From NCBI GenBank assembly GCA_018652045.1, contig JABICX010000001.1, forward strand, positions 5,107 through 69,106: 64,000 nt of DNA, in the 5' to 3' direction. Position 1 is the stretch's first letter; the number at the start of each line of letters is the position of its first letter. The stretch comes from Candidatus Woesearchaeota archaeon. GTDB taxonomy: Archaea; Nanobdellota; Nanobdellia; UBA10117; JABICX01. The notes beneath the pieces were generated by a model, which was not told the origin of the DNA, ran no database searches, and saw nothing but the letters and a program-made list of their open reading frames with translations. Shown here one piece after another: positions 11,865 to 44,071 of this stretch. The translations under genes and the position numbers were made by a program.

Positions 11865-11887
11865 TTAAAGTTCTGAATTCTAGCTAT

Positions 11888-12271: not shown

Positions 12272-12547
12272 ATGGTTCGGGTCAGTGTAGCTAAAGGTAA
12301 AAAAAGGGGAGCGGGAAAGCGCTCTTTCTCAAAAATACGTAAATTATTACTTGTTAGCCTCGCAGCAGGCCCAAAAAACTTAAATGAACTCTCAAAAATT
12401 TCTAAGGTAAACTGGCGCACCACGCGCAACCACATCGCTTTTTTAGTTGGCATGGGATATGTCAAGGAAATTTTCACTAGCCCACAAGTACGCATCTTTG
12501 AAATAACAAAGCATGGTATGGAGGGGCTAGCTAGAAATGCAGTCTAA
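12272..12547 (+). CDS. Winged helix-turn-helix (ArsR-like) regulator, paralog 1
   Basis: IRKLLLVSL..GPKNLNELSKISKVNWRTTRNHIAFLVGMGYV..RIFEITKHG; overlaps the giant-gene start by 11 nt. Confidence 0.85.
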   Translation: MVRVSVAKGKKRGAGKRSFSKIRKLLLVSLAAGPKNLNELSKISKVNWRTTRNHIAFLVGMGYVKEIFTSPQVRIFEITKHGMEGLARNAV

Positions 12548-15500
12548 GGTCTCTCAGTTTGCTTTCATTATAGCGTTTATCATAGTTCTTCTATCCTTAA
12601 CTACCCAAGTTGATTTAAGCGGAACAGTTACTGGAAAAACCACCGCCGGCGTAGCAGATGACTACGAGCACAGCCTAGAGATTACCGCAGACACAAGTTC
12701 TGAGATTATAACCCAAGAGATAGTCTTTGACCAATACAAACCCGACACCTGTGCAGAAGGAATAGCTATCTACACCGGATCTGGCGATGAGGTCTCATTT
12801 GAGACCTCTGATGACCAGTATAACGAGACATCTTGCCTTAGCACCATAATTTCATTTTCTAACAGTATCTACCACGAACCTGTTGAAGAAGAACCTTCTA
12901 CCGAACCAGAAGATCCTACCTATGCGATACCTGAACCTGAAGAACCTGTAGACGACCCTGCGCCAACCGAACCTGAAGAACCTGAATACTCAACACCTGA
13001 AACCCAACCTGAAGCATCTGAGGAAGCTGTAGCGGAAACAGGCGAGACTGAGTCAGAATCTGACCCACTGAGCGAACAAAGTTCGCGCGGCCTTTCTGAG
13101 CAAAGCTCAGATCGGGAATCCGAACCATCTGGAGACGATACCCAAACTCAGTCTGAGCCTGCCTCAGAACCAGTTCCTTCTGAAGAACCAACTCCCGAGT
13201 CAATACCTGAACCTGAATTTGGAATCACTGGAGCAGTTTCTGGAATGCCTGAAGGTGAGCAGACCATGACCTATTACATCTTCTATGGTAAGATCGTAGA
13301 AGCACCTGTTGAAGAACCAACTAACGAAACAGAAGAAGAGCCAAACGAGACTGTAGACGAACCCGTTAATGAGACTAACGAAACAATCAATGAAACAATC
13401 AATGAGACTGTTAATGAAACAATACAGCCAATAAATGCGACCATTAACGAGACAGTTGAACCAATATCAAATGTTACAGCCCGAGTTCGAACAATTCAGT
13501 CAAATGTAACGATTTTCCAGCCAGTTATTTGGCAACAATTTATTGAGCCTGACCAAGATACAGAAACTTTGGAATTTGAAGTTCCAGAGCCAGCAACCAA
13601 TATTAAAGTAACAAAAATCAAAGAAACTGGCGAAGAGCACATTATTCCAGATGAGCATTTAGAAGGTGTTGATTTAGAAGATTTAGATGAATTTACTATT
13701 GCAGCTAACCCTGTGGAAGGGGAACCAACACCCGAAGAAACAACACCCGAACATGTAAATGAAACAGTTGAACCTGAAGAGATAATAAATCCCGAATTCT
13801 CAATTACAGGTGCAGTAACCTCTGAAGCACTTCGAGAACAGGCAATTGCATTCTGGAACTTGTTCCTGAACTTATTTAGAGGAGGAATCACTGGATTTGT
13901 AGTATCTGAACCACAAACAGAACTACTTGAAGTTCCAAATAAAACAATCACAATTAATGAAAATATAACTCCGCAAGATGAAATTGTAATTGAATACGAA
14001 ACTCCTGCTCCAATCACAACTGAAGAACAAACCTCCTTTGGAAAAAGAGTAGTTGTTTCTTCAGATATCCACTATGAAAATGTTCTAACTTACACTAATA
14101 TTGAACAGCAGGTATCTGAATCAGCAATCAAGCTTTACTGGCTTAAAGAGACGCAAAGCTTTGATAATGAAACCAACGAAACAACAACATTTGTAGATCG
14201 AACCGATGTTACTAATGATCTTGAGATCGAGCTATGGAAGTTAGATACTGATGGAGATGGTAGGATAGACTACCTTGAATGGATTACCCCTCACCTTTCA
14301 AACGAGACTTTTGAAATTGAATTAACCATACTAACTGTTCAGAGCTACCCTGCATTACACGGTAACTGGACAGTTGATTTCAACACAACTGGAACCGCAA
14401 ATCTAACAATTCAGGCAACAAATGGAACAACTTGGAGTGATGAATATAATGAAAGTGTTGATTTAGAGTTCTTGAACCTAACCTGTGGAAATGAATCTGT
14501 GAACTACTCTTGGATTAATGATACTGTTTTTGTTGAAGATTATTCTTGTAATGAAACTGGTTTTGAGATTAGTAGCCCACACACGCACGGCGTACACACA
14601 ATAAGATTCCAATTTGGAGATCAAGTAGCATATGCATACAATAGTGTTACTTTAAATGAATTTAATTATCACTTTGATGGATCTCCACCGAATTCTGTAG
14701 ATAATGTACAGGATGTCTATCTATCAGGTGATTTGTTATATATAACTTCAACAGATGATGATGAAGTTTCCATACTTAATGTCTCAGACCCAACAAGCAT
14801 AGCTGCTTTAGATGGTTATGTTGATACAGCTTATTCATTTTCAGTAGAGCAGGTTCATGAGGTAATGGTCATCGGAGACTTACTTTATACAATTAGTGTT
14901 GCTGATGACAATTTTAATATACTTAATGTCTCAGACCCAACAGCAATATCTACCACTGGCGGTGGTTCTTATTTAGATAATAGTGCAGACGGTTCTATAG
15001 ATAATCCTTTGGGTATGGATATAGTAGGTGATTTAGCATATGTAACATCTGCTGCAGATGATTGTCTGACGATTATAAATGTTTCAAACCCTACTACAGT
15101 AGTTGGTGGAACGGGAGATATTGGTAGTCTTTGTGATAGTACTAACTTAAACACTGCCAATGAAGTAGTAGTCTCAGGAGATTACGCATATGTTGCTGCG
15201 GCTGGAGGAGGTTCCCAAGGTTTAGCTATTATAAATGTCTCAGACCCAACAAGTCCTACGCACGTCGCACAGTATACAAATGCAACAGAACCATTAAACA
15301 CGCACTCTCCGTATGCTCTGGATGTATATGGAGACTATGTTTTCTTAGGTGCATATAGTGATGGATTTAGTGGAATAGTTGTAATTGATGTTTCAGATCC
15401 AGAAAATCCAAATGCAGTAGCATCATATAAAGATGAGGATGGACCAGATTCAATCGATGGACCAATGGATGTTCAAGTATCTGGTCAAGGTAATTATCTG

Positions 15501-18500
15501 TATGTAGCAAGTTATCTAGACGCTTGTTTTACTATCCTTGATATATCTGACCCAGCAACACCAACTGCGGTAGCTAGTTACTGTAATACTACGACAATCG
15601 CTGGCGCGTATGATATAGCGATTTCAACAGATACTGAAACCGCATTTATCGCTGGCTCGACTGCGAGTTCAGGTGTAGTATCTTTTGTAAATATTACAGG
15701 TTATTCTGAAACAACTGCTGGGCCACCATCAATGTCTTCAGCAAGTATATTACCGGCAGTACCAAAAACATCAGATGATTTGCAAGGTTCCTGCCTAGCA
15801 ACAGATAATAATGATACAGTTACTTATTACTATGAATGGTTTAAAGATGATATATCAGATAGCAGTGGAAGTAGTGTAGGTCATGCTCCTGGAAGCGCAG
15901 TTAATTTAGATAACATAAGTGCTGCAAGTACTTCAGATAATGAAGAATGGATCTTTTCCTGTCTTGCTGATGATGGTGCAGATAATTCTAGCTGGATGAA
16001 TAGTAGCACTGCAACAGTGGGTAATATACCTCCAGGAGATTTTACCGCAGTTACATTAGCATCCTCTTCAGGCGCTAATTTATTTTCTGACAATCTTTCA
16101 GTTACATGGACAGAAAGCACCGATAATAATGGAGATACAGTCTATAACATCACTGACTGGAGATTAAACGGATCCTCAATAGCTGTCCTCAACATGCCAT
16201 TTGAATCCAACAGAAGCGGACAAGCTGGCGCAATAGTTAGAGATTATTCAACTCAAAACACAAATGGAACCTTTTCTGGATTTGATTGGGATGCAGATTC
16301 TGGTTGGCGAAATGACACGTGGTGCGCAGTTGGAGGCTGTTATGAATTTGACGGAACAGATAATTACATCTCTCTGCCAAACAACGCTTTTGATGAATAT
16401 ACACAGGGAACTATTCTTTTATGGGTATATCCAACAGACCTAAGTGCAACCGGATGCATGTATTCATATGGAGATGATTTTAATGATGCGAAATTTATTA
16501 ACTTTGCGAGTCAATCATCTGGAAAAGTTAGGTTAGCTTTGAGAGAGGACACAAGTGCAAATGACGTACTAATGGATAGTGATAATAATGTACTAAGCCA
16601 AGACATGTGGAATCACGTTGCAGTAACTAACAATGGAAGTACGTGGATTATGTACATAAATGGAACTGAAGTACCCTTCACGGTGACTGAAGAAGGAACT
16701 GCTACAGAGGGAATGTGGTTTGATGATATTGCTCCTTCTGCAGAACGTTCTTGCATAGGCGCACTATGTAGAGATGATGATAGAACTTTCTTTCAAGGAG
16801 GTGTGGACGAATTCCAGATATATAACCGTAGTCTTACTCCTGAACAAATAAGTGAAATATATCAAGCAGGTGTAGCGAATCACTCTATACAGAACCTCAA
16901 CGCTAATGAAACATCTGCAGATGATGCATGGACAGTTGCAGTTACTCCAAATGATTTGCTAGATGATGGATCAACAAATGTTTCAAATCAATTAGATATA
17001 CTCGCAGTTAATCTCTGTGCGCCAGCATCTGATGTAGAGCTAACCGCAAACAAAACTTGTGCGAGCTTGCATATCGAATCAGGCATTACTGTAAACACAT
17101 CAACTTTTGCATATTCAGTTACTGGCGATGTATTTATTAACGGAACATTAAACGCGAGTCAGGGTAAGAACCAGACTTTTAGATCGTTAGATATTAATTC
17201 AGGTGGAACCTATCACGAACCTGCAGATACCACAAAAATAACGTCTGAAAATAGTCTTGGATCTGCAGTAGATTGTGATGGTACGTATGTTGGTAACGGT
17301 GGATATTTGTTAATAAATACTAATCAGCTAGATACTAATATCGATCTAAAATGTGTGAGTGGAAGCGCGCACGACTTAGAAATTGATCTAACTAATACTG
17401 GTTATGATGCAACCGTTAGTGGTGCTGGTACTGGCGGACTGTATCTAACGGGAGATTTGATTATTGATGATGGTGAATTAGATACAGATAATCATATTGT
17501 AAATATAACGGGTGAACTATGGATACAGGCTGGCGGATATTTTGATACACGTGGAGATACAGTTGCACACGAATTTGGTGCAATAGATCTCGACAGTAGT
17601 GGTTATTTTTATGAAGGCGACGGAAAAATTATAATTGATTCAGAAGCCAGTTCTTACGCAATAGATTGCGATGGTTATTGGGTAGATGACGCCTCAACAA
17701 CGTCAATCGAGACTAATACCAATACCGCAATGGATATTTACTGTCAGACTACGGGTTATCGTCTGACTAACCTTGATATTAAACTCGGAAGTTCAGCCTA
17801 TGAGGTTACTACTACCACAACAATGTATATCGGTAAAACCTTGACCATAAAAGAAGGTGCTCTAGATACATCAGTTGGTTATTTTGGCACACATGAACCA
17901 ATAATTGTTATTGAAGATGGCGGGTTTTTGGATCTGGCTAGCAATAATAATGGTATAAATGTAGAGTCTGTTGATATTCAATCAGGTGGATCTTTTACAG
18001 GACCTAATAATATAATCTCAATAAATGCAAGTTCTGGAACCTGCTGGAATAATGCAGGTACATTTACAGCAGCGAGCGCGTCAACAGTTGAGTTTGATGG
18101 AGGTTGTACAGTAGTAACTGGTGGAACAGGGACTGGAAATGATTTTGCCAATGTTCAGTTTGATGGAGGAACAACAACTCTAAGCACAAATGGAATTGAT
18201 GTAGATGGATGGCTATTGTTAAATGGTGGATCATTTGATGCGAATGGCCAAGCAGTAACTGTTGTAGGAGATACCAATGTAACAAGTGGAACACTTACGG
18301 GTGGAGCTGGCGCAATGACCTTTGGGTCACTAACTATCGCTTCTGGCCAGACTTATTCAGCAACCAGCGGAACAACCACTATCACAAGCGAAGCAACTTC
18401 AGGATATGCGATTAGTCATTTGTCAGGTGGAACTTTGACAGCAAATTCAGGAATAATAAACGTAACAACTTCAGCAACAACTTCACTTGACTTTAGTGGA

Positions 18501-39500: not shown

Positions 39501-42500
39501 CCTCTTGTCGCGACCGGAACAAACTGGAATTGGGATCAGCAAGCTCCAGGAAATACATTAAATCTTTCCAATATTGACTATCAAATTAATGGATCAACAG
39601 GTGGAGATGGAATATTAATTCAGTTAGTTGGAGATACATGGTTCAGAAACATGACGGTTAGTTCAGGAGATGCTCTTAGCATTACAGGTTCAGCAACGCT
39701 ATACACCGATGTCCTAGACCTATCTGGAAACCTAACCAGCGGAACTGGAAACATAACCAACAACACCAACTCACAATGGTTAGCACAGTTCGATTCAGCA
39801 AATACTTACGCATGGGATAGTACAAACATATCCAAAGGTAACAATACGGGAGCATCTGTGATAAATGCTCTGACTGCAACTGATGGAGGCAACAACGTAC
39901 CTGCAGCGATGTGGAAGTTCACTGGCGGAACAGTTACTCTCGACAATCCAAATACTAGTTGGACAGTTGGTGCTAATGCAACCTTTGACTGTTCAGCAAC
40001 CAACACAGATGTAGCTCTGGCAAACATAAGCCTGTACCATAACAACACCGGAACCTTCCACAACAACGGAACAGTTTCGGTCTCAGGAACATCTGCTTCA
40101 GCACAGTTCAATGTAAGCACGCTACAAGAGAATGGATTTGAATGGTATTGCGAAGCTTGTGATGCAGTAAGCTGTGTTGTCTCAAGTGATAACCGAACCG
40201 TAACTGCAGATACAACAACTCCAACCATTAGCTACCTTGCAGATGTATGGGTAGACGCAACTCGGATCGGAACCTGGAGAGATGTAGTTGTCAACCTAAC
40301 ATCTTCTGACACAAACAACCAATCAACTTTCCTAGACTGGAATAAGACGCTAGTTGGATATTGGAGCATGGACGCAGTTTCAGGATCAACCGTACTTGAC
40401 AACTCAACCTGGCAGAACAACGGAACTCTCGAAGGTGGTGCTACACCAACCCAAGGTAAGTTCGGCAAAGGAATGAAGTTTAATGGTGATGATGAAGTAA
40501 TTAGAATGGGTGAGATCACTTCGGGACACCCACTCATGCTAGCTAACTCAAATATAACAATATCTGCATGGTTTAAACAATATAGTGGAGATACATACCA
40601 ACGAATTGTTGATAAATCCACGGCAGGTAATAGTGCAAATGGTTACGGGCTTGCTGCGCATACTAATCGAGATATTTACTTATTAGTTGACGGCTCTTAT
40701 TATCGGACAGATACTAGTGCATATAATTTTGGAGAATGGACGCACGTTGTGGGTGTTGTAACTGAAGATACTTTTGAAATATATATTGATGGTGTAAATC
40801 AAACGGGAGGTAGTTGGTCTGGAAGCGCTAAGTTACCTCCAGATGCTACAGCTAATCTAAGTATTGGATCATGGAATCATGCAGATGCTAGAGAAGTTAA
40901 CGGATCAATCGATGAAGTTCAGATCTACTCTCGAGCATTATCAGCTAATGAAATACGCGCATTGTACGATGCTAACGCTAATCAGTATAACAAGACATGG
41001 ACAGGTCTGACTGAGGGACAGAGCTATACATACACAGGATATTCTGTTGACTTGGGAGCTAACAAGAACGAGACAGCTGAGAGAACAGTCACAATCAACA
41101 ACATACCAACTACCTTCACAAGCGTAGCTATGGCATCATCAACGGCAGCTAACATCACGTCTGACAACCTGTCAGTTAGCTGGACAGATGGAACTGATGG
41201 AGACTCGGACACAATATACAACATCACTGACTGGAGAGTAAATGGATCTAGTATAGCTGTCCTTAACCTGGCTTTTGATAGTAACCGTTCTGGAACAACT
41301 ACAGCAGTTATCCGAGACTATTCAACTTTTGAGAACAACGCAACTCTGGGAAATACAACTACCGGTAGAGCACCAGCATGGACATCTTCTTGTCAGATTG
41401 GAGGATGTTACGAATTCACTGCCGCAGGAGAGGAGAAGATAAATATTTCCAATACGGTTTTGACTGGTTTAAGTACGGTCACAACTGAATTATGGATTAA
41501 AACTTCTGGATCTGCTCAGGGAGTAATAACTGGAGCAAATCCTACCTATAATAATGAGTATCTAATTTACGATCAATCATCCTTACGGCTCTATGTACAT
41601 GATTCTAATTGGAATAGTGGCGTTTCAATTAATAATAATGCATGGCGTCATGTTGTATTCACCTGGGACGGATCAAACGGAACTGTAAAATTATTCGTAG
41701 ATGGTGTGTTCCAAAATTCTGGTACAGTAAATACAGGGGCATTAACTATACCTGTAAATGGATTATGGCTTGGAGCAGAGCAAGATTCCGTTGGTGGTGG
41801 ATTCCAAGCATCGCAAGAGTTAGTAGGGTTCTTAGATGAAGTACGCATTTACAACCGGAGCTTGAGTGCAGATCAAATCTGGGCCAACTATGTGGCAGGT
41901 AATGCCTCTCTCTCAGTTCAGACTATGGTCTCAGATGAGACTGGCAAGAATGATGTATGGTCGGTGTCTGTAACTCCTAATGACTTGTATGAAGATGGAC
42001 CTAACACAACATCTGATTCGTTGACCCTTGTAAGCACAGCTCCAAATCCACCAACCTCTATCACACCAGCATCTGGAACATGGGGTGGAGACAACAGCTC
42101 AATGGAGCTGAACTGTTCAGGCGCGTCGGACAATGACTCTGACACAATAACATACTCAATAGAATCTAACCGAACAGGTAGCTGGACTGAGGTAACTACT
42201 GGCCTGGCAGACGGCAACTACTCGTGGGACATATCTAGCTACGACAATATAGTTGGAATCAACTTCAGATGTTGGGCAACAGATGGAGCACTTAACTCTA
42301 GCAAGTATACTGCAAGCGCAAGTGTAAACTTGGACAACTGGGGACCACGATGGAGCAGCCCAAGCAAGAACGCATCTACAGTCTATAATGGATTGAACAT
42401 CAGCCTGAACACAACCTGGACAGAGACACAGGCAGCAGATGTCGGGCTCGCAGGATTCATCTTCTCATCAAACGACAGTGGTAGCTGGACAAATGGCAGC

Positions 42501-43073
42501 TATACAGTACTTAACGGAACAACCAATGTATCTACATATGAACTTGAGGTAACAACCTCTGCAGGTAATACGGTTGGTTGGTACTTCTGGACCAATGATA
42601 CACAGGGTAACACAAACCAGACTGATCTACAGACATTCACTATCGGCAACAAGTCCATCGCAATAGCAGTTTCTGACCTTCTAGATGCAGGGGTACGGTG
42701 GGTAATTCAGAGTCTTCCATCAACTAGAGCGAACGCGTCATATAACAACGGAACATCTGACACGAGCTATTATGTAACCGTTACTTCAGTTGGCACAAAT
42801 GTAGACCTATCTATTGCAGCAGATGGCAACCTGACAACATCTGGCGGATCAGTTCTGGACATCAGTAACGAAGAGTTCAGATACAATACTTCTGAAACAG
42901 ATGTAACTAATAGCGACTATTACACCATGGCTACAACCAACAACACAATTGGTTCTAACATTGTCAACGGTACAACTTCCTACATGAAGTTCTACCTAAC
43001 GGTTCCAGGTAACCAAACTGTCGGAATTTACAATAACACATTATCTGTCTATGCAGAGGAGAGTTCACTATAA
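12537..43073 (+). CDS. Giant 10,178-aa secreted/surface adhesin-like protein
   Basis: Uninterrupted 30.5-kb ORF. N-terminal hydrophobic segment; acidic E/P-rich linkers; LVIVD-type propeller repeats (~14700-15700). Six LamG/ConA-like domains (~16190, 21390, 23620, 30380, 40350, 41260; WxHV..LYxDG..DExxIYNRxL). About 30 FGSLTINSGGTYxATSGTTTI repeats, Ig-like domains, and a C-terminal pilin/WxL-like domain. No C-terminal TM. Confidence 0.92.
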   Translation: MQSKVSQFAFIIAFIIVLLSLTTQVDLSGTVTGKTTAGVADDYEHSLEITADTSSEIITQEIVFDQYKPDTCAEGIAIYTGSGDEVSFETSDDQYNETSCLSTIISFSNSIYHEPVEEEPSTEPEDPTYAIPEPEEPVDDPAPTEPEEPEYSTPETQPEASEEAVAETGETESESDPLSEQSSRGLSEQSSDRESEPSGDDTQTQSEPASEPVPSEEPTPESIPEPEFGITGAVSGMPEGEQTMTYYIFYGKIVEAPVEEPTNETEEEPNETVDEPVNETNETINETINETVNETIQPINATINETVEPISNVTARVRTIQSNVTIFQPVIWQQFIEPDQDTETLEFEVPEPATNIKVTKIKETGEEHIIPDEHLEGVDLEDLDEFTIAANPVEGEPTPEETTPEHVNETVEPEEIINPEFSITGAVTSEALREQAIAFWNLFLNLFRGGITGFVVSEPQTELLEVPNKTITINENITPQDEIVIEYETPAPITTEEQTSFGKRVVVSSDIHYENVLTYTNIEQQVSESAIKLYWLKETQSFDNETNETTTFVDRTDVTNDLEIELWKLDTDGDGRIDYLEWITPHLSNETFEIELTILTVQSYPALHGNWTVDFNTTGTANLTIQATNGTTWSDEYNESVDLEFLNLTCGNESVNYSWINDTVFVEDYSCNETGFEISSPHTHGVHTIRFQFGDQVAYAYNSVTLNEFNYHFDGSPPNSVDNVQDVYLSGDLLYITSTDDDEVSILNVSDPTSIAALDGYVDTAYSFSVEQVHEVMVIGDLLYTISVADDNFNILNVSDPTAISTTGGGSYLDNSADGSIDNPLGMDIVGDLAYVTSAADDCLTIINVSNPTTVVGGTGDIGSLCDSTNLNTANEVVVSGDYAYVAAAGGGSQGLAIINVSDPTSPTHVAQYTNATEPLNTHSPYALDVYGDYVFLGAYSDGFSGIVVIDVSDPENPNAVASYKDEDGPDSIDGPMDVQVSGQGNYLYVASYLDACFTILDISDPATPTAVASYCNTTTIAGAYDIAISTDTETAFIAGSTASSGVVSFVNITGYSETTAGPPSMSSASILPAVPKTSDDLQGSCLATDNNDTVTYYYEWFKDDISDSSGSSVGHAPGSAVNLDNISAASTSDNEEWIFSCLADDGADNSSWMNSSTATVGNIPPGDFTAVTLASSSGANLFSDNLSVTWTESTDNNGDTVYNITDWRLNGSSIAVLNMPFESNRSGQAGAIVRDYSTQNTNGTFSGFDWDADSGWRNDTWCAVGGCYEFDGTDNYISLPNNAFDEYTQGTILLWVYPTDLSATGCMYSYGDDFNDAKFINFASQSSGKVRLALREDTSANDVLMDSDNNVLSQDMWNHVAVTNNGSTWIMYINGTEVPFTVTEEGTATEGMWFDDIAPSAERSCIGALCRDDDRTFFQGGVDEFQIYNRSLTPEQISEIYQAGVANHSIQNLNANETSADDAWTVAVTPNDLLDDGSTNVSNQLDILAVNLCAPASDVELTANKTCASLHIESGITVNTSTFAYSVTGDVFINGTLNASQGKNQTFRSLDINSGGTYHEPADTTKITSENSLGSAVDCDGTYVGNGGYLLINTNQLDTNIDLKCVSGSAHDLEIDLTNTGYDATVSGAGTGGLYLTGDLIIDDGELDTDNHIVNITGELWIQAGGYFDTRGDTVAHEFGAIDLDSSGYFYEGDGKIIIDSEASSYAIDCDGYWVDDASTTSIETNTNTAMDIYCQTTGYRLTNLDIKLGSSAYEVTTTTTMYIGKTLTIKEGALDTSVGYFGTHEPIIVIEDGGFLDLASNNNGINVESVDIQSGGSFTGPNNIISINASSGTCWNNAGTFTAASASTVEFDGGCTVVTGGTGTGNDFANVQFDGGTTTLSTNGIDVDGWLLLNGGSFDANGQAVTVVGDTNVTSGTLTGGAGAMTFGSLTIASGQTYSATSGTTTITSEATSGYAISHLSGGTLTANSGIINVTTSATTSLDFSGTGNPYTIEVTGGTKVWQQNTALDGNLTVSSGTFRANSAAKTLTVTGDVDVTGTLGGGSQTAANSFGSLTINSGGTYEATSGTTTITSKASNDYALDNDGTLTHNSGTVNITTGATTYIDVVESGGVYNLEVDSGNIVSCVNSAPTIAGNLTVSSGTFKMDSSSASLTATADVDVTGTLGDGSDSGAFTFGSLTINSGGTYSATSGTTTITGEAPSGFALDNDGTLTANSGLINITTTGSTFIDILGTVAGNPYDLEYDSSGGYLTISGNNSAVDNNLIIDAGQFRPGNNDDFNATGDVTVAGGQLYDGDETGTATFGSLTINSGGTYDATSGTTTMKGDFSNAGIFTHNDGTVTTAGTDVNISGTVDPAFYDLTIGSGTAHLKSNMTVENALTVSGSTEVDLYGYNYTFGTASAAGTIANSGTVDVGTTSQDIQLYAASESYYFTVTGTDIDWNDKSGTNWYVKWVDYDPNVDTGTGTNLNLTWDGDVIFDGFTMRNGFTLDPQSYDWTTASDTWIDGKVVSGSGYHNLHTLVTSTNADYTATSGRTRVYNRMSGNGINLGASGTFNHNNGHMEVAGQSTAQAIVVSNGATFYDLNISNTAGSYVYLKSNIVVDKDMWVESDTFDSIGYNVGVSGGVYVTGGEWNASTGTNTVGNLTISSGASVNATSGVLTINGSLFNNAGSFYPDSGTVAFNGASTTIMGNTGFSELRISGNVTDDGDSNYTVMNVTSVGNFTYNTSNYDYNVTYYKATGGYVGIASSSTLTSNTTYWNGTADGNKLTANTTGAAYFVDVIEAGSNWWVGGWNSAPTMTSADIQPDPAYTTSALLGYCRADDSESDNVTFHYQWYNNSVSVETGYNSTSLLQGVEYVIHALTSGNISKGENWTFACIAQDDLANASAWINDSVLISNTVPTAFTSVVLAATNTSLNNTNQNLTVTWTDGSDSDSDAIYNITDWRLNSTSIAVLNMPFDSNRSGQSGSIVRDYSTNTNNGTLEGNPQGVTVGRIGGAYAFDGSGDYINLGATNALIGNNNQNITVSLWVNTTDTVAKYAFSLKRQSGANSTLLSVCSNYGSVGTLGFLTREYDDSGHDYMTYDGDYNDGSWHHVVAIVDGLNRYLYIDNVLRGSDALGMQDVTSNTDEATIGGFGASTTSLDFTGHLDDVKVFNRSLTPEQIDQIYNAGLAGHSVQNMSFNETVVNDTWTVAVTPNDLESDGTTTTSNSVTIINNAPSISTVDLTPDSPTTDDHLTCTVTGGADVDGDSLTYTYDWYEDQVFNQSYVQSGASYVLNRSNISAGEVWNCTVTPWDGIENGTAITDSVTVAQGCIVDSVTGNITLTSNLACSTLDIYAGYVLDTSTYTLTATGATEINGTIDASSSTAVSFAAVTIQSGGTYTATSATTTVTGDAANSGTFTHNNGLLYRTDPSGEWNGFTGTNAFYNFQNEGGYTMDGNVMQIINQLSGSETFNVYYNGKLILGNESQSGTVDMTADTDLTTNLKYSNTIMAASELYPAIIKNAYVNTLSGSGTLTLNNTDWQLAFTTGGYGTGTVKLDGDAKFDAFTITAGDTLDLNGQRVEFDGAITNSGSIDLDGALVYVNSGNPNWDGASGVTGQSTSDIVFTGTFSAMPDDSHRTIFVNTAGTVTLNTDYFFNYGQVIVGAGELDTGSDRKIGSVSSPVDNLTIATGGTLDAHASNIVVDQNWKATGGLIGKSALDLDGSSEGVNVTDDESLDITTAITVEAWIKTDDVENNNGMIVCNQNQPIANAGYFIYARGVDDTFNFAAYTSSEVGDAKYTVDSSVNSRWVHLVGTYDGSNIRLYMDGKLVNETALTGTINISSSNLGIGYRDEGSSLNFDGAIGKVSIWNGTLTQSEIRSNMFADCAGNSNQSTLVSCYQFDEGTGTSVADSIGSNTGTASGSGVWAGTPTFSYDTSTVNLTGTGSLMVADSPSARDFYNLEVAQSGKTTTISPIGSGVNHDIYGKFTAGAGTLSVSNNGRLVIGGSDAPVDEGATFSAFQYVTYNTGTANITGSTYAGLYSYTENRYLLGNVSVAGATGAMTAGKAILSNGYNITTEDITATGELNLSAGSVLIFEDTAGAAVSGSGGVYAEGAAGNLVGVHSAGTEHWDFNETAFNTTWNYANVSYGNNTGTATIIVYNGNDYGNNMPAGMWVFSTATPDNCLFGGDATLTANLTCGNLGISAGAVVTDAYSINATGDAEINGTLNASTGGPQWFGSMIINSGGTYEATAGTTEINSETGSGIAFRVNSGGTFTHSNGLVNFTGPETWFYLISGSSGNFYDLEVASGNKLSCGSNMIMSNDFIISSGEYECAAITTVTGDTNITGTVDINSGYAFTTGSLTINSGGTYQATSGTTTITSESSAGYSIYSKTGSTFTSNSGLVNVTYNGVSNIGIGDNATKLHDLHIQSSTKYFNGQSNSHVKLSGDLIVYGGTVRSGSSSGEILVSGDVNVTGGTLGWSGASGANTFGSLTINSGATYYATSGTTEITSENTGGYAYDNDGTFTNNSGTVRFSTAAPTLIDTSGTVGSFYDLILNHASLDLIQDTALVVGNDLTVTAGNMNTSDNNYALTVTGDADVTGTLTGQASAVSLGSLTINSGGTYDATSGVTTITSEAGSGYDLDLNSGSTFTHNDGTINITYTTGYASLDLSSTGDFYNLVFAIGAQRNSIITYAGGTMTVANDLTIESGIFDINNRAFDVTRDVSVTGTLDSDYLSTGTQDISYGSLTINSGGVHRATSGTTTINSSFSRVGTLTHNSGTIAFNNDTVAQITGDTTFYNLNTNAAVFNSSDDNITIASGGTLTQGGNITANILDIRGTMAIGAGEEITFEDTVGSGFAGTGTLTIAGSSGDLVNITSAGTTAWRMPHPTLNSTWNYAAVSYGNNTGADTIVVYDGTDEGSNGPLGMWVFDSNACIFAGNVTLTANLTCSSFQIESGAEVSTDTYSVNATGAAYLNGTLNASQAGDQWFGSMRVNSGGVYSATSGTTTITSEDASYALYCAGVFTHNNGNVTYASTIPDTWIWPQCSSGTFNNIVFSTADDIVYWASGETISGNVTVNDGNIAIGADPVGLIITGDVVINGGVLNNLGGTNTGDWSFGSLKINTGGEYNATSGTTTITKRTVGGYNFQVNGGTFTHNSGTVNISAGDYFTVTPSTFYNLGILANTDWAGNVAVANDLTVSATSLGTYGGSGDLTVTGDVTVANSGTLDGGAEALSFGSLTINSGGTYEATSGTTLLHGEGKASETVIWALNSGGTFNHNQGTVEFSHKTQYSRALMGTLEPTFYNLRMSGNDYGWSILMVRKDITVINELSGDVQNNLFTMYGNDLVFTLGNASQAANVSTLTLNGQTYNNGYWYGASADYPAVFTNNNLRFIQGNSANTQYAQTYIKWLDFQETVTSSNTDNGIVTLTGPVTFDAYTLASGDTFELNGQEATISGNLASSGTFTGAEGNLSLSGTGQTMSGVIDNITQINVSSTVDLTVQSGTNVSFADIVGAGFAGTGNLTISGSDGNLARITSGGTTNWVVPHPTLNTSWNYVNVSYGNNTGTDVIIVNNGTDYGNNVPVGMWVFNSPTSPANCTFAATTTLTANLTCNNLYVESGVTLSTDTYSINATGDASFNGTVNASAGGDQWFGKTNINDGGGMYHATSAFTSINGYFTIDGDFLHNDGTMLFTSSMMYIYPNSSTFYNITQTNTVYVGEPLTVIHMYNQSSGQLRLTNGMGTLTLGNDTQAGTLFGASGASTIQPYSTTIQAANQLYPGVITDNGNLWWGQAGTKTFKWLNFTSALQVDDGGGIGIQLTGDCSFAAVSISSGETFDLNGQRVEFGGELDILSGGDLGQAGAQIVMTGAARPDYDGTITGKADIIYDSTASPDIDGGGTYSFGTIFTRETSTLAIYPGTTIDQFIVGSGTFSTNDLQLDASNLTIANGGTLSGGASAINVAENWKSSSGPIGRYALDLDGSTEYVNTAQDIDMFYFMDEENRTQEAWFKVNSTGQHVVMAYQPVDANFGGVPRGGLYANSNYLYLEWYGTEDGDSLAYHSISTPIEIDQWYHAVSVHEDSKYYFYLDGKLVNISGTTTHGNYADANTDIVYIGVTSDGNAKFFDGHIGRVSIWNVSLQADDIRASMFQPCTTLSNQSELVSCWQFDEGTGTTVADSIGSNTGTASASTVWAAGGTFTEGTSTVNMTGTGSVIVDDDQDFYNIEVANSGQTTTITCPENGYGEADVYGKLSSGAGTLSKVSMASWEILGSDAPTDGTSANNIFETSRIIYNGAANVTGSGYYYLIVNSADAYLLGNVTVTAGDDYTGIGAGDSLSSNGYNMSVDRLRINGNLNLTAGSVLTFDDATGFETSDGTFNVVGASGNLATIESASATAWEFNATAVTSTWNYANVSYGNNTGTDVIFVNNGTDYGNNVPVGMWVFNSPTSPANCTFAANTTLTANLTCNNLGVETGVALVTSTYSVNTTGWAELNGTLNATSGTGQQFNSMTIRAAGAYEAPSSAVTNITTTTNIYGDFLLESGNLSTGSALTTAYAITLYSGGRFDGSTGYHETGSISCPSGSTCDLTSGTTNFVTRRGSYNSYFIYCADDDSSINHNNGTVNITLGTTSYMLYNTDELTLYNVETDGGLYDGTGSGYKLNVEGNLTLGSSYTFYNNGIINVTGDVIQNAGTFGKSGVRTFNQDVYFGSLTINSGTYSATSGTTTITSKNSGSGWTIDNDGTFTANSGTVNITYGSAACEFDILGTGALYNLELNCGGNIAKSYGATTTIDNDLTINNALFRTDNNRAVTVTGDVVVNNGGTLGNAETAAWSLGSLTINSGGTYSATSGATTITNYFSNAGTYTHNSGDIVFSNDTLAQFTGDATFYNLTTNAAVFNSSDDNITIATGGTLTQQGNITANILDIRGEMSIGAGEKVTFDDTTGSGFSGTGNLTIAGSDGNLANITNAGTTEWTMPHPTLNSTWDYVAVSYGNNTGTEAIIVYEGADEGNNVDDGEWIFSFAAAPANCSFAANTTLTANLTCSKLDVLAAATVVTDTYSINATSDAEVNGTLNASQGGDQWFGSLDINSGGTYYATNGTTTITSEEGSHYAFYNNGGTLTHNSGIFNFTQTASEGAYSQIYDNGAGDLNNLVVGTTGSNQLRQIGALTIEGNLTSEASSEYAFGGSSTRHLTVNQNVVIDGDVNGGSNGASGTFGSLTINSGGTYSATSGTTSIDGDLDNNAGSSGYVHNDGTLSFVNGGGYLYGGEGVFNDITYSGGVNYVDFSENLTIINSTNLYARFGRDTEQIITLGNSTQSATIGGAGYSAMFGTYDATFQANSSAYPTDWSQTFYFGTGEIISLKWINFTQDIATGGDGENISITGDSWFQNLSVTGNDVLNITDSSTLYTDVLDLNGTLTSGSGNITNNNNAQWLAHFDLADNYTWDSTNISEGNNTGAVVINAQSATDGGNNVPDGMWLFGGAGVSCLFSGNTTLTANLSCSTLGVESAATVATSTYSINATSDAEVNGTLNASAGGSQWFGSMTLQSGGTYEANIGNTTINNAPNGDYAFYGYSGSTLTHNDGTFVFSSGENSFVRTEGNGVFYNIIVDKSGYKLNTPHVGDLTVESNLTVTAGEIDRVTADKIINVTGDVDITGTIDLSGESGGAYFGSLTIQSGGTYDATSGTTTITSENTGSGFAFNDLGTFTHNNGILNITTSAFTEFRGTAYDLIVSTGSFLVYRSITIADNNVTIDSGTLRSNNYGNDLTVTGDVLIRGGTLGLSIPESGDWSFGSLTINSGGTFEATNGTTTITNESAGGYAINHDGTLNNNTGIFNITTVDATLLDLTGTGNLNDLVMNTSSIASIVDTTTIDGNLNISSGTFQSNNDNRALTITGDVIINGGQLDSGSEAGARSFGSLTINSGGTYDATSGTTTISGDFDNDGTFTHNDGILEFSNFTGNDQRLGGGTFYDIVVSGSGSSWVELYAETSATILNSLNHTSGEDLYLRNTFTFGNTTQAATINMDGEGSGDRVSSSTSCKIYGASESYPVVITGARDFMYWDNINFKWVDFQINTSTDDRSKTITLDGTSWFRDITVDTTDIFDTGTSTLYMNNLTLVGNLTSGAGNITNNTNAQWLAHFDNADTYTWSSTNISQGNNTGSLVINAQSATDGGNNVPDGMWLFGGEGVACLFSANDTLTANLTCASLQVEAAATLVTGEYSINATGDAEVNGTLDASSGGNQWFDSLTIQATGTYTATSENTTISGVGVSSYNAVLYVGGTFDNNTGTFVFNHQDSGSYRSNLGYEESNGGQLHNVIVDTNGIQSFEANTVITGNLTVDAGTAQTNNAAWTWDITGDVVVNSGGTLGAASRSADYSFGSLTINSGGTYSATNGTTTITDENPSGYAFVNDGTFTHNSGTVTITTDANTYLDLTGSGNVYNLITNRSGRAYDWTIAATIDNDLTVTAGTLRASGVGDNLIVTGDVDITGILSDNARGVVMTFGSLTINSGGTYSATSGTTTITSEADSGYGWDNDGTFTANSGTVNFTYGTGTLLDAVGTSGTFYNLIFSGTSTTLMTDLDVEGNLTENSVGALITNANNKYINVTENVVIGGQIGDATETADWTFGSLTINSGGVYSATSGITEINNTALNTYALNNDGTLTANGGTINITSQTASQYYLDIATGSGNPYNFVVDIGGGNSLKWIFDGGVIDGNLTVQSGTFNSNADLYDLTVTGDTVVSGTLSNGGSDAMTFGSLAIKSGGTYSATSGTTTINSEDGSNHALDCDGTFTANSGNVSIETGASTIVDILCTGSLYDLDIDNTGVATYWEHDAATIANDLVITAGSFRAGTTTHDITVTGDVLVQNTGTLGIATESGARSFGSLTINSGGTYVATSGTTTLTSESGSGRVIDVDTAATYTHNNGELAITTNTATAFVSYENIFNNITINNAGSYTQMVGNVTVADTLTVNSGKDLYVGSGQDNILIIGNSTQSGSIVSTGDFIVNAYTGYTQVIKGASSAYPLVATGTNWNWDQQAPGNTLNLSNIDYQINGSTGGDGILIQLVGDTWFRNMTVSSGDALSITGSATLYTDVLDLSGNLTSGTGNITNNTNSQWLAQFDSANTYAWDSTNISKGNNTGASVINALTATDGGNNVPAAMWKFTGGTVTLDNPNTSWTVGANATFDCSATNTDVALANISLYHNNTGTFHNNGTVSVSGTSASAQFNVSTLQENGFEWYCEACDAVSCVVSSDNRTVTADTTTPTISYLADVWVDATRIGTWRDVVVNLTSSDTNNQSTFLDWNKTLVGYWSMDAVSGSTVLDNSTWQNNGTLEGGATPTQGKFGKGMKFNGDDEVIRMGEITSGHPLMLANSNITISAWFKQYSGDTYQRIVDKSTAGNSANGYGLAAHTNRDIYLLVDGSYYRTDTSAYNFGEWTHVVGVVTEDTFEIYIDGVNQTGGSWSGSAKLPPDATANLSIGSWNHADAREVNGSIDEVQIYSRALSANEIRALYDANANQYNKTWTGLTEGQSYTYTGYSVDLGANKNETAERTVTINNIPTTFTSVAMASSTAANITSDNLSVSWTDGTDGDSDTIYNITDWRVNGSSIAVLNLAFDSNRSGTTTAVIRDYSTFENNATLGNTTTGRAPAWTSSCQIGGCYEFTAAGEEKINISNTVLTGLSTVTTELWIKTSGSAQGVITGANPTYNNEYLIYDQSSLRLYVHDSNWNSGVSINNNAWRHVVFTWDGSNGTVKLFVDGVFQNSGTVNTGALTIPVNGLWLGAEQDSVGGGFQASQELVGFLDEVRIYNRSLSADQIWANYVAGNASLSVQTMVSDETGKNDVWSVSVTPNDLYEDGPNTTSDSLTLVSTAPNPPTSITPASGTWGGDNSSMELNCSGASDNDSDTITYSIESNRTGSWTEVTTGLADGNYSWDISSYDNIVGINFRCWATDGALNSSKYTASASVNLDNWGPRWSSPSKNASTVYNGLNISLNTTWTETQAADVGLAGFIFSSNDSGSWTNGSYTVLNGTTNVSTYELEVTTSAGNTVGWYFWTNDTQGNTNQTDLQTFTIGNKSIAIAVSDLLDAGVRWVIQSLPSTRANASYNNGTSDTSYYVTVTSVGTNVDLSIAADGNLTTSGGSVLDISNEEFRYNTSETDVTNSDYYTMATTNNTIGSNIVNGTTSYMKFYLTVPGNQTVGIYNNTLSVYAEESSL
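29151..29274 (+). repeat. 124-bp near-identical internal duplication, copy 1 (module junction)
   Basis: Matches 31701-31824 with 2 mismatches (ATCATA vs ATCTTC). Confidence 0.9.
31701..31824 (+). repeat. 124-bp near-identical internal duplication, copy 2
   Basis: Matches 29151-29274, offset 2550 nt. Confidence 0.9.
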
Positions 43074-43327: not shown

Positions 43328-43350
43328 TAAGTTTGAAAATGGAATATACT

Positions 43351-43914
43351 ATGCATAAGATTAGTTTGATTCTAGCACTGTTGGTATTAATGACACCACA
43401 AGCATCCGCTATGAAAGGCGTCGGCATTGTATATGGTACTGTGATAAGTAATGTTGACGAAGGCGAAACAGCCTGCTTTGACTATGGTGTATACAACCCT
43501 TGGGATCAGGATGTAAAGATCATACTAACTGTATCAGGTGACCTTGCTGAGCTTAATGCATTTAGCGAGAATGTTGATGTGCCTGCAGGCACAACCCATG
43601 ACAAAGCAAAGTCGGTTGAGATTTGCTTTGATGTACCTAAAGTCTATTCTTACACCTGTCCCGATACCCCGATAGTGCTATCAGGTAAAGTAATCGCTAC
43701 AGAGTATTATCCAGCAGGTGTATCTGGAACTGGCTCAACAACCTCGGTTTCAGCAGCAGCGCCGCTTGAGATGAGAGTCAGATGCGATGCAGACAAGGGA
43801 GTCCAATTCACGACACAATACTTCTTTATTGGTGCAGGCATAGCGATTCTGCTAGCCGCACTATATGTAATGAGAAAATTCTTCAAAACCCATAAAATCA
43901 TCAAAAAGCGCTAA
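43351..43914 (+). CDS. Secreted single Ig-like domain protein with C-terminal TM anchor (DUF916-like)
   Basis: Signal peptide MHKISLILALLVLMTPQASA; beta-rich domain (YGVYNPW..VDVPAG..VEICFDVP..GKVIA); TM FFIGAGIAILLAALYVM plus basic tail. Alternative starts at 43333 and 43339. Confidence 0.7.
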   Translation: MHKISLILALLVLMTPQASAMKGVGIVYGTVISNVDEGETACFDYGVYNPWDQDVKIILTVSGDLAELNAFSENVDVPAGTTHDKAKSVEICFDVPKVYSYTCPDTPIVLSGKVIATEYYPAGVSGTGSTTSVSAAAPLEMRVRCDADKGVQFTTQYFFIGAGIAILLAALYVMRKFFKTHKIIKKR

Positions 43915-43998: not shown

Positions 43999-44071
43999 TT
44001 TTAATACTACTGTTAATGTAGTTAACACATACATGGTTAAAACTACGTTAAATATGTTAATGTAGTTAACA
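43999..44071 (+). promoter_or_regulatory. BRE/TATA followed by two identical 17-bp operator-like sites
   Basis: GGAAAGA-TTTTAATA (TATA 43999-44006). TGTTAATGTAGTTAACA at 44011-44027 and 44055-44071, 44 bp apart, with form TGTTAA-N5-TTAACA. Inverted core AACTACGTTA at 44041. Confidence 0.75.

What the first reader, a model, noticed from the sequence alone, without database searches (positions are those of the whole stretch)
12537..43073. 10,178-aa protein with hierarchical modular architecture
A single 30.5-kb gene is a very large investment for a probably small genome. Order: TM, acidic linkers, an N-terminal block (QPVIW..YETPAP..HYENVL..PHLSN..VQSYP), an ~8-blade LVIVD-type propeller, Ig/LamG, then nine beta-helix-like modules. 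Each module opens with a Cys pair of the type CxFxxxxTLTANLTC (~17010, 22465, 25020, 27270, 29255, 31805, 33530, 34900, 37005). Most close with GNNTG...DxGNN..GMWxF. Two more LamG domains and the pilin-like domain follow. The modules hold different numbers of ~125-aa repeats. Inference: a rigid rod, possibly hundreds of nm long, studded with glycan-binding domains. I saw no enzymatic or toxin domain.
Basis: partly seen in the sequence, partly recalled or inferred. Interest (0 to 1): 0.75.

Follow-up and report, generated by a model that had tools for sequence, protein, structure and literature searches.

The report
Giant archaeal surface fibre with docking domain
A tiny marine archaeon spends about 4% of its genome on one 10,178-residue surface protein, built of beta-helix rods and sugar-binding domains, whose last domain is predicted to clip onto a small membrane protein encoded just downstream.

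Summary
ORF 12537-43073 (+) is an unbroken 10,178-aa frame (1.07 MDa, pI 4.05) in a 0.69-Mb DPANN (Woesearchaeota) genome. All nine Cys-pair openers sit at the stated coordinates. It has one N-terminal hydrophobic segment, acidic linkers, an LVIVD propeller (7 repeats, not 8) and six LamG domains. It has 33 copies of a ~125-aa repeat in nine modules, and no enzyme or toxin family. A model of module 7 (pLDDT 61) matches only right-handed beta-helix proteins (Z up to 17.6).

Giant LamG-rich archaeal surface proteins are already in print, so the protein itself is a new member of a known kind. Two things are new.
- The N-terminal block is an unannotated tandem beta-sandwich, found in 132 of 301 sampled genomes of the phylum.
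- The last ~150 aa ("domain X") define a conserved cassette: a payload protein ending in X, a small membrane protein with X, and a signal-peptide/beta-sandwich/TM protein. It was complete in 18 of 18 loci examined.

Complex prediction (0.87; best control 0.02) puts the small protein's N-terminal strand into the giant's X domain, as in donor-strand complementation. This parallels the bacterial WxL and Pam pili, without sequence membership. Nothing here has been tested experimentally.

The parts
12537..43073 (+). Giant gene, 10,178 aa, 1.066 MDa, pI 4.05
12537..12626 (+). N-terminal signal peptide or signal anchor (aa 1-30). It is the only hydrophobic segment in the protein.
   Evidence: Kyte-Doolittle scan
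12867..13466 (+). Acidic E/P/T-rich linker (aa ~111-310). A second short linker lies at aa ~380-425.
   Evidence: sequence
13467..14657 (+). N-terminal block. The structured core (aa ~480-707) is two beta-sandwich domains with an EF-hand-like DxDxDG loop. It belongs to no Pfam family.
   Evidence: Model pLDDT 86.8. Ig/cohesin-like matches at Z<=9.9. 1,798 representative clusters at E<=1e-3. No Pfam or PDB sequence match.
14679..15701 (+). LVIVD beta-propeller, 6 strict plus 1 degenerate repeat (aa ~715-1055)
   Evidence: Pfam PF08309, 66.2 bits; motif count
15720..16907 (+). Ig-like domain (aa 1062-1165) followed by LamG type 1 (aa 1166-1457)
17016..22466 (+). Module 1 (8 repeats plus cap), followed by Ig-LamG-Ig (aa 2795-3309; LamG at nt 21234-22076)
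22467..39926 (+). Modules 2-9. Each opens with C..TLTANLTC and closes with GNNTG..GNN..MWxF. They hold 1, 5, 3, 1, 3, 2, 4 and 6 repeats, and five of these eight carry a ~170-aa cap segment (modules 2, 4, 5, 7, 8, 9; module 1 has one too, seven in all).
   Evidence: Module 7 model and beta-helix matches.
23592..24236 (+). LamG type 2 embedded in module 2 (aa 3686-3900). Its paralogue in module 5 lies at nt 30354-31019 (aa 5940-6161).
40377..41936 (+). Two C-terminal LamG domains (aa 9281-9481 and 9524-9800)
42594..43070 (+). Domain X (aa 10020-10178), the C-terminal attachment module and predicted donor-strand acceptor
   Evidence: Paralogues in own genome. BLASTP E 4e-9 to ORF 44879-45745. 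Complex prediction 0.87 against 0.02.
12272..12547 (+). 91-aa winged-helix ORF that overlaps the giant's start codon
43073..43327 (+). 84-aa winged-helix paralogue whose start overlaps the giant's stop
   Evidence: HTH_45 at E 8e-4, below the cut-off.
43333..43914 (+). 193-aa protein with signal peptide, beta-sandwich and C-terminal TM (family 'A193'), a chaperone-like candidate
   Evidence: Sequence. Present in 18 of 18 loci.
44071..44886 (+). 271-aa cytoplasmic protein with two copies of an ~85-aa FxYxLxGRG domain (family 'B271')
44879..45745 (+). 288-aa 'small X' protein: cytoplasmic tail, TM, ITGFAG motif, predicted donor strand, then domain X
46087..46722 (+). 211-aa protein with basic tail, TM and beta-rich ectodomain (family 'D211')
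46777..47898 (+). 373-aa protein with signal peptide, an A193-like N-domain, a weak CARDB-like region and a C-terminal TM (family 'E373')

Best explanation
The gene encodes a real, exported and probably heavily N-glycosylated surface fibre of a marine DPANN (Woesearchaeota) archaeon.

The long middle part is a chain of nine right-handed beta-helix modules. This is seen only at model level. My estimate of its length, about 130-180 nm, is an inference. The chain carries a 7-repeat LVIVD propeller and six LamG lectin-type domains. These most likely bind surface glycans or glycoproteins of a host or partner cell (inferred from the families).

The protein is the largest known member of a 'payload-X' family. 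Its last ~150 residues (domain X) act as an attachment module. The N-terminal strand of the co-encoded small membrane protein (ORF 44879-45745) is predicted to insert between the C-terminal strand of X (antiparallel) and the strand at aa ~10049-10061 (parallel). That is donor-strand complementation. It would tether the fibre's C-terminus to a membrane-embedded base.

The signal-peptide/beta-sandwich/TM proteins of the cassette (43333-43914 and 46777-47898) are candidate membrane-anchored chaperones. This is by analogy only.

Whether the N-terminal hydrophobic segment is cleaved (leaving a free distal tip with the conserved N-block and propeller) or kept (leaving both ends at the membrane) is open.
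For: - The frame is intact. GC is like that of the genome.
- LVIVD and six LamG domains are found, and no enzyme family.
- N-x-S/T sequons number 345, against 219 +/- 12 in 200 shuffles with a maximum of 263.
- The beta-helix fold: all 50 listed VIA matches are beta-helix/solenoid proteins. Examples are Vag8 (Z 17.6, 317 aligned, rmsd 4.0), EtpA (Z 16.4, 369 aligned, rmsd 5.8), HMW1 (15.1) and pertactin (14.7).
- Orthologues exist in both other genomes of the genus. G001 has a 7,075-aa frame cut by a contig end. G002 has a 7,844-aa N-part and a 3,043-aa C-part carrying 34 and 13 repeats.
- Domain X occurs 4 times in the own genome, as two big/small pairs.
- The X profile is found in 17 of 39 genomes of the order, and in 16 of these 17 as a small ORF plus an upstream larger ORF ending in X (325-10,180 aa).
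- In 18 of 18 loci examined, payload-X, small X and an A193-like gene lie together.
- Complex prediction gave ipSAE 0.87, 0.88 and 0.87, with 0.02 as the best of 3 controls. The runs share >=88% of contacts and the partner's pLDDT is >=84. In the tool's calibration the mark was reached by 116 of 157 solved complexes and 2 of 215 mismatched pairs; these counts hold only roughly, because my own alignments were used.
- The contacts run 144~24, 146~22, 148~20 and 151~17 (antiparallel), and 34~20, 36~22 and 38~24 (parallel).
- A TG-x-A motif lies after the TM in 18 of 18 small X proteins.
Against: - The module model is of middling confidence (pLDDT 61). The junctions are below 50, and Foldseek found nothing at E<=0.001.
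- The complex is a prediction made from shallow alignments (5 and 4 rows). The two chains are paralogues, which models may pair by strand swap.
- No structure of X alone was obtained.
- Pfam WxL, WxLIP_PGBD, Peptidase_M73 and SCPU find nothing in the genome even at E<=10. The analogy therefore has no sequence support.
- The giant also has an N-terminal hydrophobic segment without an obvious AxA cleavage site. An N-terminal anchor is therefore equally possible, and X could instead be the distal end.
- No host, no ligand and no evidence of expression are known.
- The order of the middle modules rests on one short-read assembly.
Confidence: 0.55

Rival explanations
1. Classical N-terminally anchored adhesin. 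The N-terminal hydrophobic segment stays in the membrane. The acidic linker and conserved N-block form the base that crosses the S-layer. The beta-helix rod projects outward, and the LamG-LamG-Ig-X end is the distal tip that binds the host. The predicted X/small-X contact would be irrelevant, or would serve only for folding.
For: - There is a single N-terminal TM-like segment without a clear cleavage motif.
- The N-block sits near the N-terminus of proteins with many different payloads. It was found in 132 of 301 genomes, and 19 of 19 scanned relatives had no Pfam family on it but carried varied cargo. That pattern suits a common base.
- Nanohaloarchaeal giant proteins are read this way in PMC10266531 (passages read).
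Against: - It does not explain why every protein ending in X is followed by a small membrane protein with the same domain (16 of the 17 genomes with X; 18 of 18 loci).
- It does not explain the strong, control-clean strand-insertion prediction.
Confidence: 0.2
2. Polymeric donor-strand-exchange pilus. Small X and/or the 211-aa protein polymerise into a fibre, and the giant caps it as tip adhesin. This would be the archaeal counterpart of the WxL (Elr) or CPR Pam pili.
For: - The locus logic is the same as for Elr. That system has a small protein made of the shared domain, a large protein with variable payload plus the C-terminal shared domain, and a signal-peptide/Ig/TM chaperone (bioRxiv 10.64898/2026.10.17.759780: abstract and sections 8 and 12 read; PMC10599100: abstract).
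- The predicted donor strand runs antiparallel to the acceptor's C-terminal strand, as in ElrD-ElrD.
Against: - In 13 of 18 loci small X carries a conserved ~95-aa cytoplasmic tail and comes with a cytoplasmic partner gene (B271). In the other 5 loci both are missing. This suggests that small X stays in the membrane as a base rather than leaving as a pilin.
- There is no sequence relation to WxL or DUF916.
Confidence: 0.15
3. Shed or matrix protein. The fibre is released and forms a glycan-binding extracellular matrix or protective coat, not a host-attachment device.
For: Tip-less or matrix roles are discussed for related bacterial systems. The protein has no enzyme or toxin domain.
Against: The conserved pairing with membrane proteins and the predicted tether argue for retention on the cell.
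Confidence: 0.07
4. Assembly artefact. The 30.5-kb frame is a chimera of several shorter genes joined through their repeats.
For: - Logan contigs of four runs break inside the gene, and none spans it.
- Database fragments stop at aa 3233 and start at aa 7964.
- The full-length protein was not returned in the 5,499-17,499-aa search.
Against: - There is no stop in 30.5 kb.
- The repeats are only 60-84% identical at DNA level.
- Depth is even at about 6-10 in four runs, and 6 of 8 module junctions inside nt 20000-39999 are bridged by listed contigs.
- A same-genus orthologue adds up to >=10,887 aa and is colinear over long blocks that span junctions.
- Other genomes of the class hold 9,000-10,022-aa frames headed by the same N-block.
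Confidence: 0.03

Closest known systems
Huge LamG-bearing archaeal surface proteins (survey in PMC11573180)
   Same: More than 5,000 aa, archaeal, and Laminin_G_3 is the dominant recognisable domain. The paper calls the function 'not understood' (passages read).
   Different: Here the bulk is a modular beta-helix rod. In addition, a conserved N-block and a C-terminal docking domain with its own gene cassette are defined.
Nanohaloarchaeal giant 'SPEARE' proteins (SVXNc_0300, 9,409 aa; PMC10266531)
   Same: A DPANN giant surface protein of about 1 MDa with low pI, an N-terminal signal, beta-propeller, Ig and LamG-type parts. It is proposed to mediate host contact.
   Different: Those proteins end in a TM region plus a VirB4/TraG-like ATPase. 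This one has a single N-terminal TM, no ATPase and ends in domain X. A 6,873-aa metagenome protein (P0036) combines an N-block-like part with HerA/DUF87 domains, which links the two kinds only through the N-terminal part.
Bacterial beta-helix fibre adhesins (EtpA, HMW1, FHA; autotransporter passengers such as Vag8, pertactin, Ag43)
   Same: The predicted right-handed beta-helix rod matches them best (Z 14.7-17.6). They are also long, repeat-built, glycosylated adhesins.
   Different: This protein has no TPS domain or beta-barrel translocator, there is no outer membrane, and no sequence relation was found.
WxL (Elr) pilus of Bacillota (bioRxiv 10.64898/2026.10.17.759780; PMC10599100)
   Same: The locus logic is the same: a big protein with variable payload plus a C-terminal shared domain, a small protein with that domain, and a signal-peptide/Ig-like/C-terminal-TM protein. 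The donor strand is predicted antiparallel to the acceptor's last strand.
   Different: There is no match to the WxL or WxLIP_PGBD models. The organism is an archaeon without sortase or cell wall. Small X mostly keeps a cytoplasmic tail and TM. Polymerisation is not shown. The preprint reports the WxL system as confined to Bacillota.
Pam pili of CPR bacteria (PMC13278184) and archaeal donor-strand filaments (threads PMC9715654, bundling pili PMC9245690, cannulae PMC12518558)
   Same: Donor-strand-linked surface structures in ultrasmall episymbionts or in archaea. Pam uses membrane-anchored chaperones with a C-terminal TM (passages read).
   Different: For the three archaeal papers I saw only the search listing. 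No sequence relation was tested except Peptidase_M73 (TasA/ABP type), which found nothing. None of these systems carries a 1-MDa payload.

Membership tests
Huge archaeal LamG surface proteins | At least 5,000 aa and at least one Laminin_G_3 domain | tested here: met
   10,178 aa. PF13385 at E 2e-37 to 3e-41 in each third of the protein. Six copies by own HMMs.
LVIVD beta-propeller (PF08309) | Score above the Pfam gathering cut-off; tandem LVIVD repeats | tested here: met
   66.2 bits against 20.2. 6 strict plus 1 degenerate repeat at ~51-aa spacing.
Right-handed parallel beta-helix fold | Solenoid of short strands that superposes on solved beta-helices | tested here: met
   Module 7 model. All 50 listed VIA rows are beta-helix/solenoid proteins at Z 11-17.6. 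Caveats: pLDDT is 61 and Foldseek's best E is 0.067.
Two-partner-secretion / autotransporter adhesins | TPS secretion domain or C-terminal beta-barrel translocator | tested here: not met
   No such Pfam or NCBIfam family anywhere in the protein.
Nanohaloarchaeal SPEARE giant proteins | C-terminal membrane region with a VirB4/TraG-like ATPase | tested here: not met
   No ATPase family. The only hydrophobic segment is aa 1-30.
WxL pilus system | WxL domain (PF13731) on the small and large proteins | tested here: not met
   hmmscan at E<=1 lists no WxL for X or for ORF 44879-45745. PF13731 finds nothing in the whole genome at E<=10. The Atlas's nearest named cluster is WxL at 0.76, with TM 0.37-0.39, which is a lead only.
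WxL pilus system | DUF916/DUF3324 membrane-anchored chaperone | tested here: not met
   PF06030 finds nothing at E<=10. PF11797 was not tested. An analogous signal-peptide/beta-sandwich/TM gene is present in 18 of 18 loci.
WxL pilus system | Locus with a large payload protein and a small protein sharing one C-terminal domain | tested here: met
WxL pilus system | N-terminal donor strand inserted antiparallel to the acceptor's C-terminal strand | tested here: inconclusive
   Predicted only: ipSAE 0.87 against 0.02 as best control, with the contact pattern given. No experiment has been done.
WxL pilus system | Polymerisation of the small subunit into a fibre | not tested
TasA / archaeal bundling pilus; SCPU (archaic chaperone-usher) pilins | Match to Peptidase_M73 (PF12389) or SCPU (PF05229) | tested here: not met
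   No match in the genome at E<=10.

The most novel reading that the evidence does not exclude
DPANN archaea of this order possess their own donor-strand-complementation display system. It would be a third, sequence-unrelated counterpart of the bacterial WxL and CPR Pam pili.

In this reading, domain X is an incomplete Ig-like acceptor. The TG-x-A segment that follows the membrane helix of the small X protein is the donor strand. The signal-peptide/beta-sandwich/TM proteins are membrane-anchored chaperones. Payloads from about 200 to 10,000 residues are plugged onto a membrane base or a short fibre.

The giant itself starts with a similar motif behind its own hydrophobic segment. It could therefore also donate a strand, allowing head-to-tail chains of 1-MDa subunits that reach and hold host cells.
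Probability: 0.35. Interest if true: 0.85.

Novelty: new variant of a known kind. Interest (0 to 1): 0.62.

Why it matters
DPANN archaea are thought to live attached to other cells, but how they hold on is largely unknown. Their largest genes are annotated as hypothetical.

This work turns one such gene into a defined architecture. It has a conserved N-block, a beta-helix rod studded with lectin domains, and a docking domain. It is also tied to a small conserved gene set that can be tested at the bench.

If the docking prediction holds, donor-strand attachment with membrane-bound helpers would be a shared solution of ultrasmall symbionts in both prokaryotic domains. The roughly 1,800 protein clusters that carry the N-block would also gain a first functional frame.

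Tried and rejected
- Expression: no RNA holder was listed for the gene, so nothing can be said about expression.
- Foldseek on the module 7 model gave no match at E<=0.001. VIA was needed.
- PDB sequence searches gave nothing useful. Profile A3 gave only EF-hand noise (E 0.26), and A1 and A5 gave nothing.
- The ESM Atlas gave only unnamed clusters at 0.88 for the N-block.
- NCBIfam gave nothing usable for the giant or for 13 neighbouring proteins.
- Pfam at E<=1 gave nothing credible for domain X or the cassette proteins, apart from weak CARDB (0.0035) and HTH_45 (8e-4).
- Toxin or enzyme cargo (the CdiA/FhaB idea) was rejected, because no such family was found.
- An S-layer protein was considered and dropped, on size and on the cassette context.
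- Module order by short contigs: the contigs break at shared words. The listed 'joints' have short sides of 20-62 nt and look like repeat jumps, so they neither prove nor disprove the order.
- The strict opener/closer motif is narrow in distribution. It was found in 3 loci of the species-representative genomes and in 5 of 41 relatives including the own genome.
- Paper searches found no description of this family or cassette: 'LVIVD'+'DPANN' gave 0 papers, the Woesearchaeota/giant/surface terms gave nothing specific, and 'DPANN'+'donor strand' gave 2 papers, neither on archaeal systems of this kind.
- Supplements of the cited papers were not opened and may list such proteins.

Full report
**The gene and its genome**

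The window holds an uninterrupted frame at 12537-43073 (+) of 10,178 codons. The window lies on contig C12 of a 685,416-bp assembly in 25 contigs, rated 88.5% complete. The gene is therefore 4.46% of the assembled DNA.

The neighbours include an archaeal CCA-adding enzyme, RNase HII, AspRS and SMC. Records of the nearest relatives are titled Candidatus Woesearchaeota. The GC content of the gene (0.37-0.42) is close to that of the contigs (0.38-0.41).

**Anatomy**

Going from the N-terminus:
- One hydrophobic segment at aa 1-30, the only one in the protein.
- A small Cys-pair domain.
- A ~200-aa acidic E/P/T linker.
- Six strict plus one degenerate LVIVD repeat.
- An Ig-like domain and a LamG domain.
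- Nine modules.
- An Ig-like region, two LamG domains, two Ig/FN3-like domains and a final ~150-aa domain that I call X.

Eight modules end with GNNTG...GNN...MWxF.

An HMM of the ~125-aa repeat finds 33 copies at E<=1e-5. By module the counts are 8, 1, 5, 3, 1, 3, 2, 4 and 6. A ~170-aa 'cap' segment recurs in seven modules. Modules 2 and 5 are paralogous super-modules that each enclose a LamG domain.

The protein is 1.066 MDa with pI 4.05. It is rich in T, G, S and N. N-x-S/T sequons are enriched: 345 against 219 +/- 12 in shuffles. In an archaeon this suggests dense N-glycosylation, but that is an inference. Pfam and NCBIfam show no enzyme or toxin family.

**Is the frame an assembly artefact?**

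- The repeat copies are 60-84% identical at the DNA level. That is too diverged for simple collapse.
- Two database fragments match aa 1-3233 (99.85%) and aa 7964-10178 (99.95%). Both end at the ends of ~41-kb contigs. Their sources are masked, so I cannot say they are independent of this sample.
- Contigs of four marine runs from four studies cover nt 20000-39999 in all 30 bins, at depth about 4-16. Most pieces are >=99% identical, with 8 base differences listed.
- Six of the eight module junctions in that stretch are bridged by a listed contig with >=31 nt on both sides. No contig spans the gene, and the breaks fall at shared words.
- The same-genus genome G002 carries an orthologue in two pieces, of 7,844 and 3,043 aa. 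They stop and restart about 100 residues apart at a module junction, so the whole is >=10,887 aa. It is colinear with this protein over blocks of 1,739 and 2,046 aligned positions that cross junctions. It holds more repeats, 34 + 13.

The module number therefore varies between relatives. The giant size is a property of the lineage and not of one assembly. Long reads are still needed for the middle of the gene.

**Fold of the modules**

Module 7 (aa 6952-7460) was modelled with the other modules as its alignment. It gave an all-beta model of mean pLDDT 61. Values were 80-88 over the opener and first repeat, and below 50 at both junction ends.

Foldseek found nothing at E<=0.001, although its weak list was mostly beta-helix proteins. 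The wide VIA search gave 141 chains at Z>=8, and all 50 listed rows are beta-helix/solenoid proteins, nearly all right-handed parallel beta-helices. They are led by Vag8 (Z 17.6, 317 aligned, rmsd 4.0), EtpA (16.4), a phage tailspike (15.4), a yeast adhesin (15.3), HMW1 (15.1) and pertactin (14.7).

For length, I take 6,685 residues as helical (aa 1494-9130 minus the inserted Ig and LamG parts). I recall 18-25 residues and 0.48 nm per turn. The rod would then be roughly 130-180 nm if straight. That is an inference, and the stiffness of the junctions is unknown.

**The N-terminal block**

An exhaustive HMMER search with aa 310-720 found 1,798 representative clusters at E<=1e-3 and 320 at E<=1e-30. 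Identity was typically 40-55% over aa ~480-705. The block lies a few hundred residues from the N-terminus of proteins of 246 to 7,093 aa.

Nineteen of these proteins were scanned. None has a Pfam family on the block. Their other domains are LamG arrays, Beta_helix/NosD, FG-GAP, DUF2341 or Big_13.

A profile of the block hits 132 of 301 sampled genomes of the phylum, all in the same class, and 106 of 225 genera. One of the positive genomes is unpublished; without it the tally is 131 of 300. The block sits in frames of up to 10,022 aa.

With 30 relatives as alignment the model is confident (pLDDT 86.8) and shows two beta-sandwiches. The second (aa ~597-707) resembles Ig-like, cohesin and Gram-positive adhesin or pilin domains at Z<=9.9. 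That score does not stand out from background.

The block is therefore a widespread, unnamed module that heads large surface proteins of these archaea.

**Domain X and its cassette**

- The last ~150 residues match the C-terminal part of the 288-aa ORF 44879-45745, 1.8 kb downstream (BLASTP E 4e-9).
- The own genome has four copies in two pairs: giant plus the 288-aa ORF here, and a 1,353-aa beta-helix protein plus a 275-aa ORF on contig C23.
- The genes between and after them are paralogous too. They are also kept downstream of the orthologues in G002, G005 and G018.
- Across the order, the X profile hits 17 of 39 genomes (9 of 21 genera). In 16 of these 17 it occurs as a small ORF (154-312 aa) plus an upstream larger ORF ending in X (325-10,180 aa).
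- In the 18 loci I fetched, 18 of 18 hold payload-X, small X and a ~190-280-aa protein with signal peptide, beta-sandwich and C-terminal TM.
- Thirteen of the 18 also hold a cytoplasmic protein (B271). In exactly those loci small X carries a ~95-aa cytoplasmic tail. In the other five loci both are missing.
- Every small X has TG-x-A a few residues after its membrane helix (18 of 18).
- Six of 11 payload-X proteins with complete N-termini also carry the N-block.
- Only 1 of the 149 listed N-block hits other than the window's own fragment ends in X. The two modules are therefore independent.

**Predicted docking**

I folded the giant's X domain (5-row alignment) with the ectodomain of small X (4 rows). 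The score was ipSAE 0.87, 0.88 and 0.87, against 0.02 for the best of three controls. The runs shared >=88% of contacts and the partner's pLDDT was >=84.

In the tool's calibration this mark was reached by 116 of 157 solved complexes and 2 of 215 mismatched pairs. These counts hold only roughly here, because my own alignments were used.

Residues 11-27 of the small-X construct, the stretch right after its membrane helix, contact the giant's last strand in antiparallel register. They contact the strand at construct residues 30-42 in parallel register. This is the geometry of donor-strand complementation.

It is a prediction only. The two chains are paralogues, and no solved relative exists by sequence.

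**Comparison with known systems**

- Giant LamG-rich proteins are the commonest kind of huge archaeal protein, and their function is called not understood (PMC11573180, passages).
- Nanohaloarchaea have 8,880- and 9,409-aa surface proteins. These end in a VirB4-like ATPase, which this one lacks (PMC10266531, passages).
- A preprint on giant genes notes few archaeal proteins above 10,000 aa (10.1101/2023.11.21.568195, passages).
- The cassette logic matches the WxL/Elr pilus of Bacillota and the Pam pilus of CPR bacteria. Both are built by donor-strand exchange with membrane-anchored chaperones.
- The Pfam models for WxL, WxLIP_PGBD, Peptidase_M73 and SCPU find nothing in this genome at E<=10. 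The system works like these pili, as far as prediction goes, but it is not a member of them.
- My searches found no paper describing this family or cassette.

**Verdict**

The protein itself is a new, very large member of a known kind. The docking domain and its cassette are a new variant of donor-strand display systems. They are supported only in silico.

Noticed in passing
window 12272-12547 and 43073-43327: Two paralogous small winged-helix ORFs (91 and 84 aa) flank the giant gene. One overlaps its start codon and the other its stop codon. Copies sit in the same place in G002 and G001. They may be regulators of the locus.
   Followed up: partly
window 44071-44886 with 44879-45745; loci L012-L029: The cytoplasmic B271 protein (two FxYxLxGRG domains, no family) is present in 13 of 18 loci. 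These are exactly the loci where small X has a long cytoplasmic tail. In the 5 loci with tail-less small X (197-206 aa) it is absent. Its stop overlaps the start of small X. This hints at a cytoplasmic partner of the base protein.
   Followed up: partly
giant aa 29-33, 228-231, 423-426 and 451-454; window ORFs 44879, 46087, 49368; P0034, P0036: A short [ILV]TG[FYA] motif follows membrane or hydrophobic segments in many exported proteins of this locus and of relatives, including proteins without domain X. It could be a processing signal or a general donor-strand start. It remains unexplained.
   Followed up: partly
G000 contig C23, about 62000-80166 (locus L016): The same genome holds a second, smaller copy of the whole cassette: a 1,353-aa N-block/beta-helix protein ending in X, followed by the 262-, 162-, 275-, 234- and 365-aa paralogues.
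   Followed up: yes
window 1-1209 and 1209-4676: The tail of a 2,104-aa frame that starts before the window carries five MopE-type metal-binding motifs and a weak dockerin match. It is followed by a 1,155-aa ORF with no family. These are probably further surface proteins.
   Followed up: no
window 49368-52892: A 1,174-aa membrane protein has Big_9/cadherin-like and tandem-95-type repeats and an ITGF motif after its last N-terminal membrane helix. It is conserved downstream of the cassette in G002.
   Followed up: no
window 53449-56271 (-): A MoxR AAA ATPase, DUF58 and VWA/BatA gene trio lies on the opposite strand.
   Followed up: no
protein P0036 (6,873 aa, metagenome): It shares the N-terminal part (30% identity to giant aa 334-734) and also carries LamG plus DUF87/HerA-type ATPase domains, like the nanohaloarchaeal giant proteins. 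The N-block may therefore head both kinds of giant protein.
   Followed up: no
window 11887-11963: A tRNA-Met gene lies about 300 nt upstream of the winged-helix ORF that precedes the giant gene.
   Followed up: no
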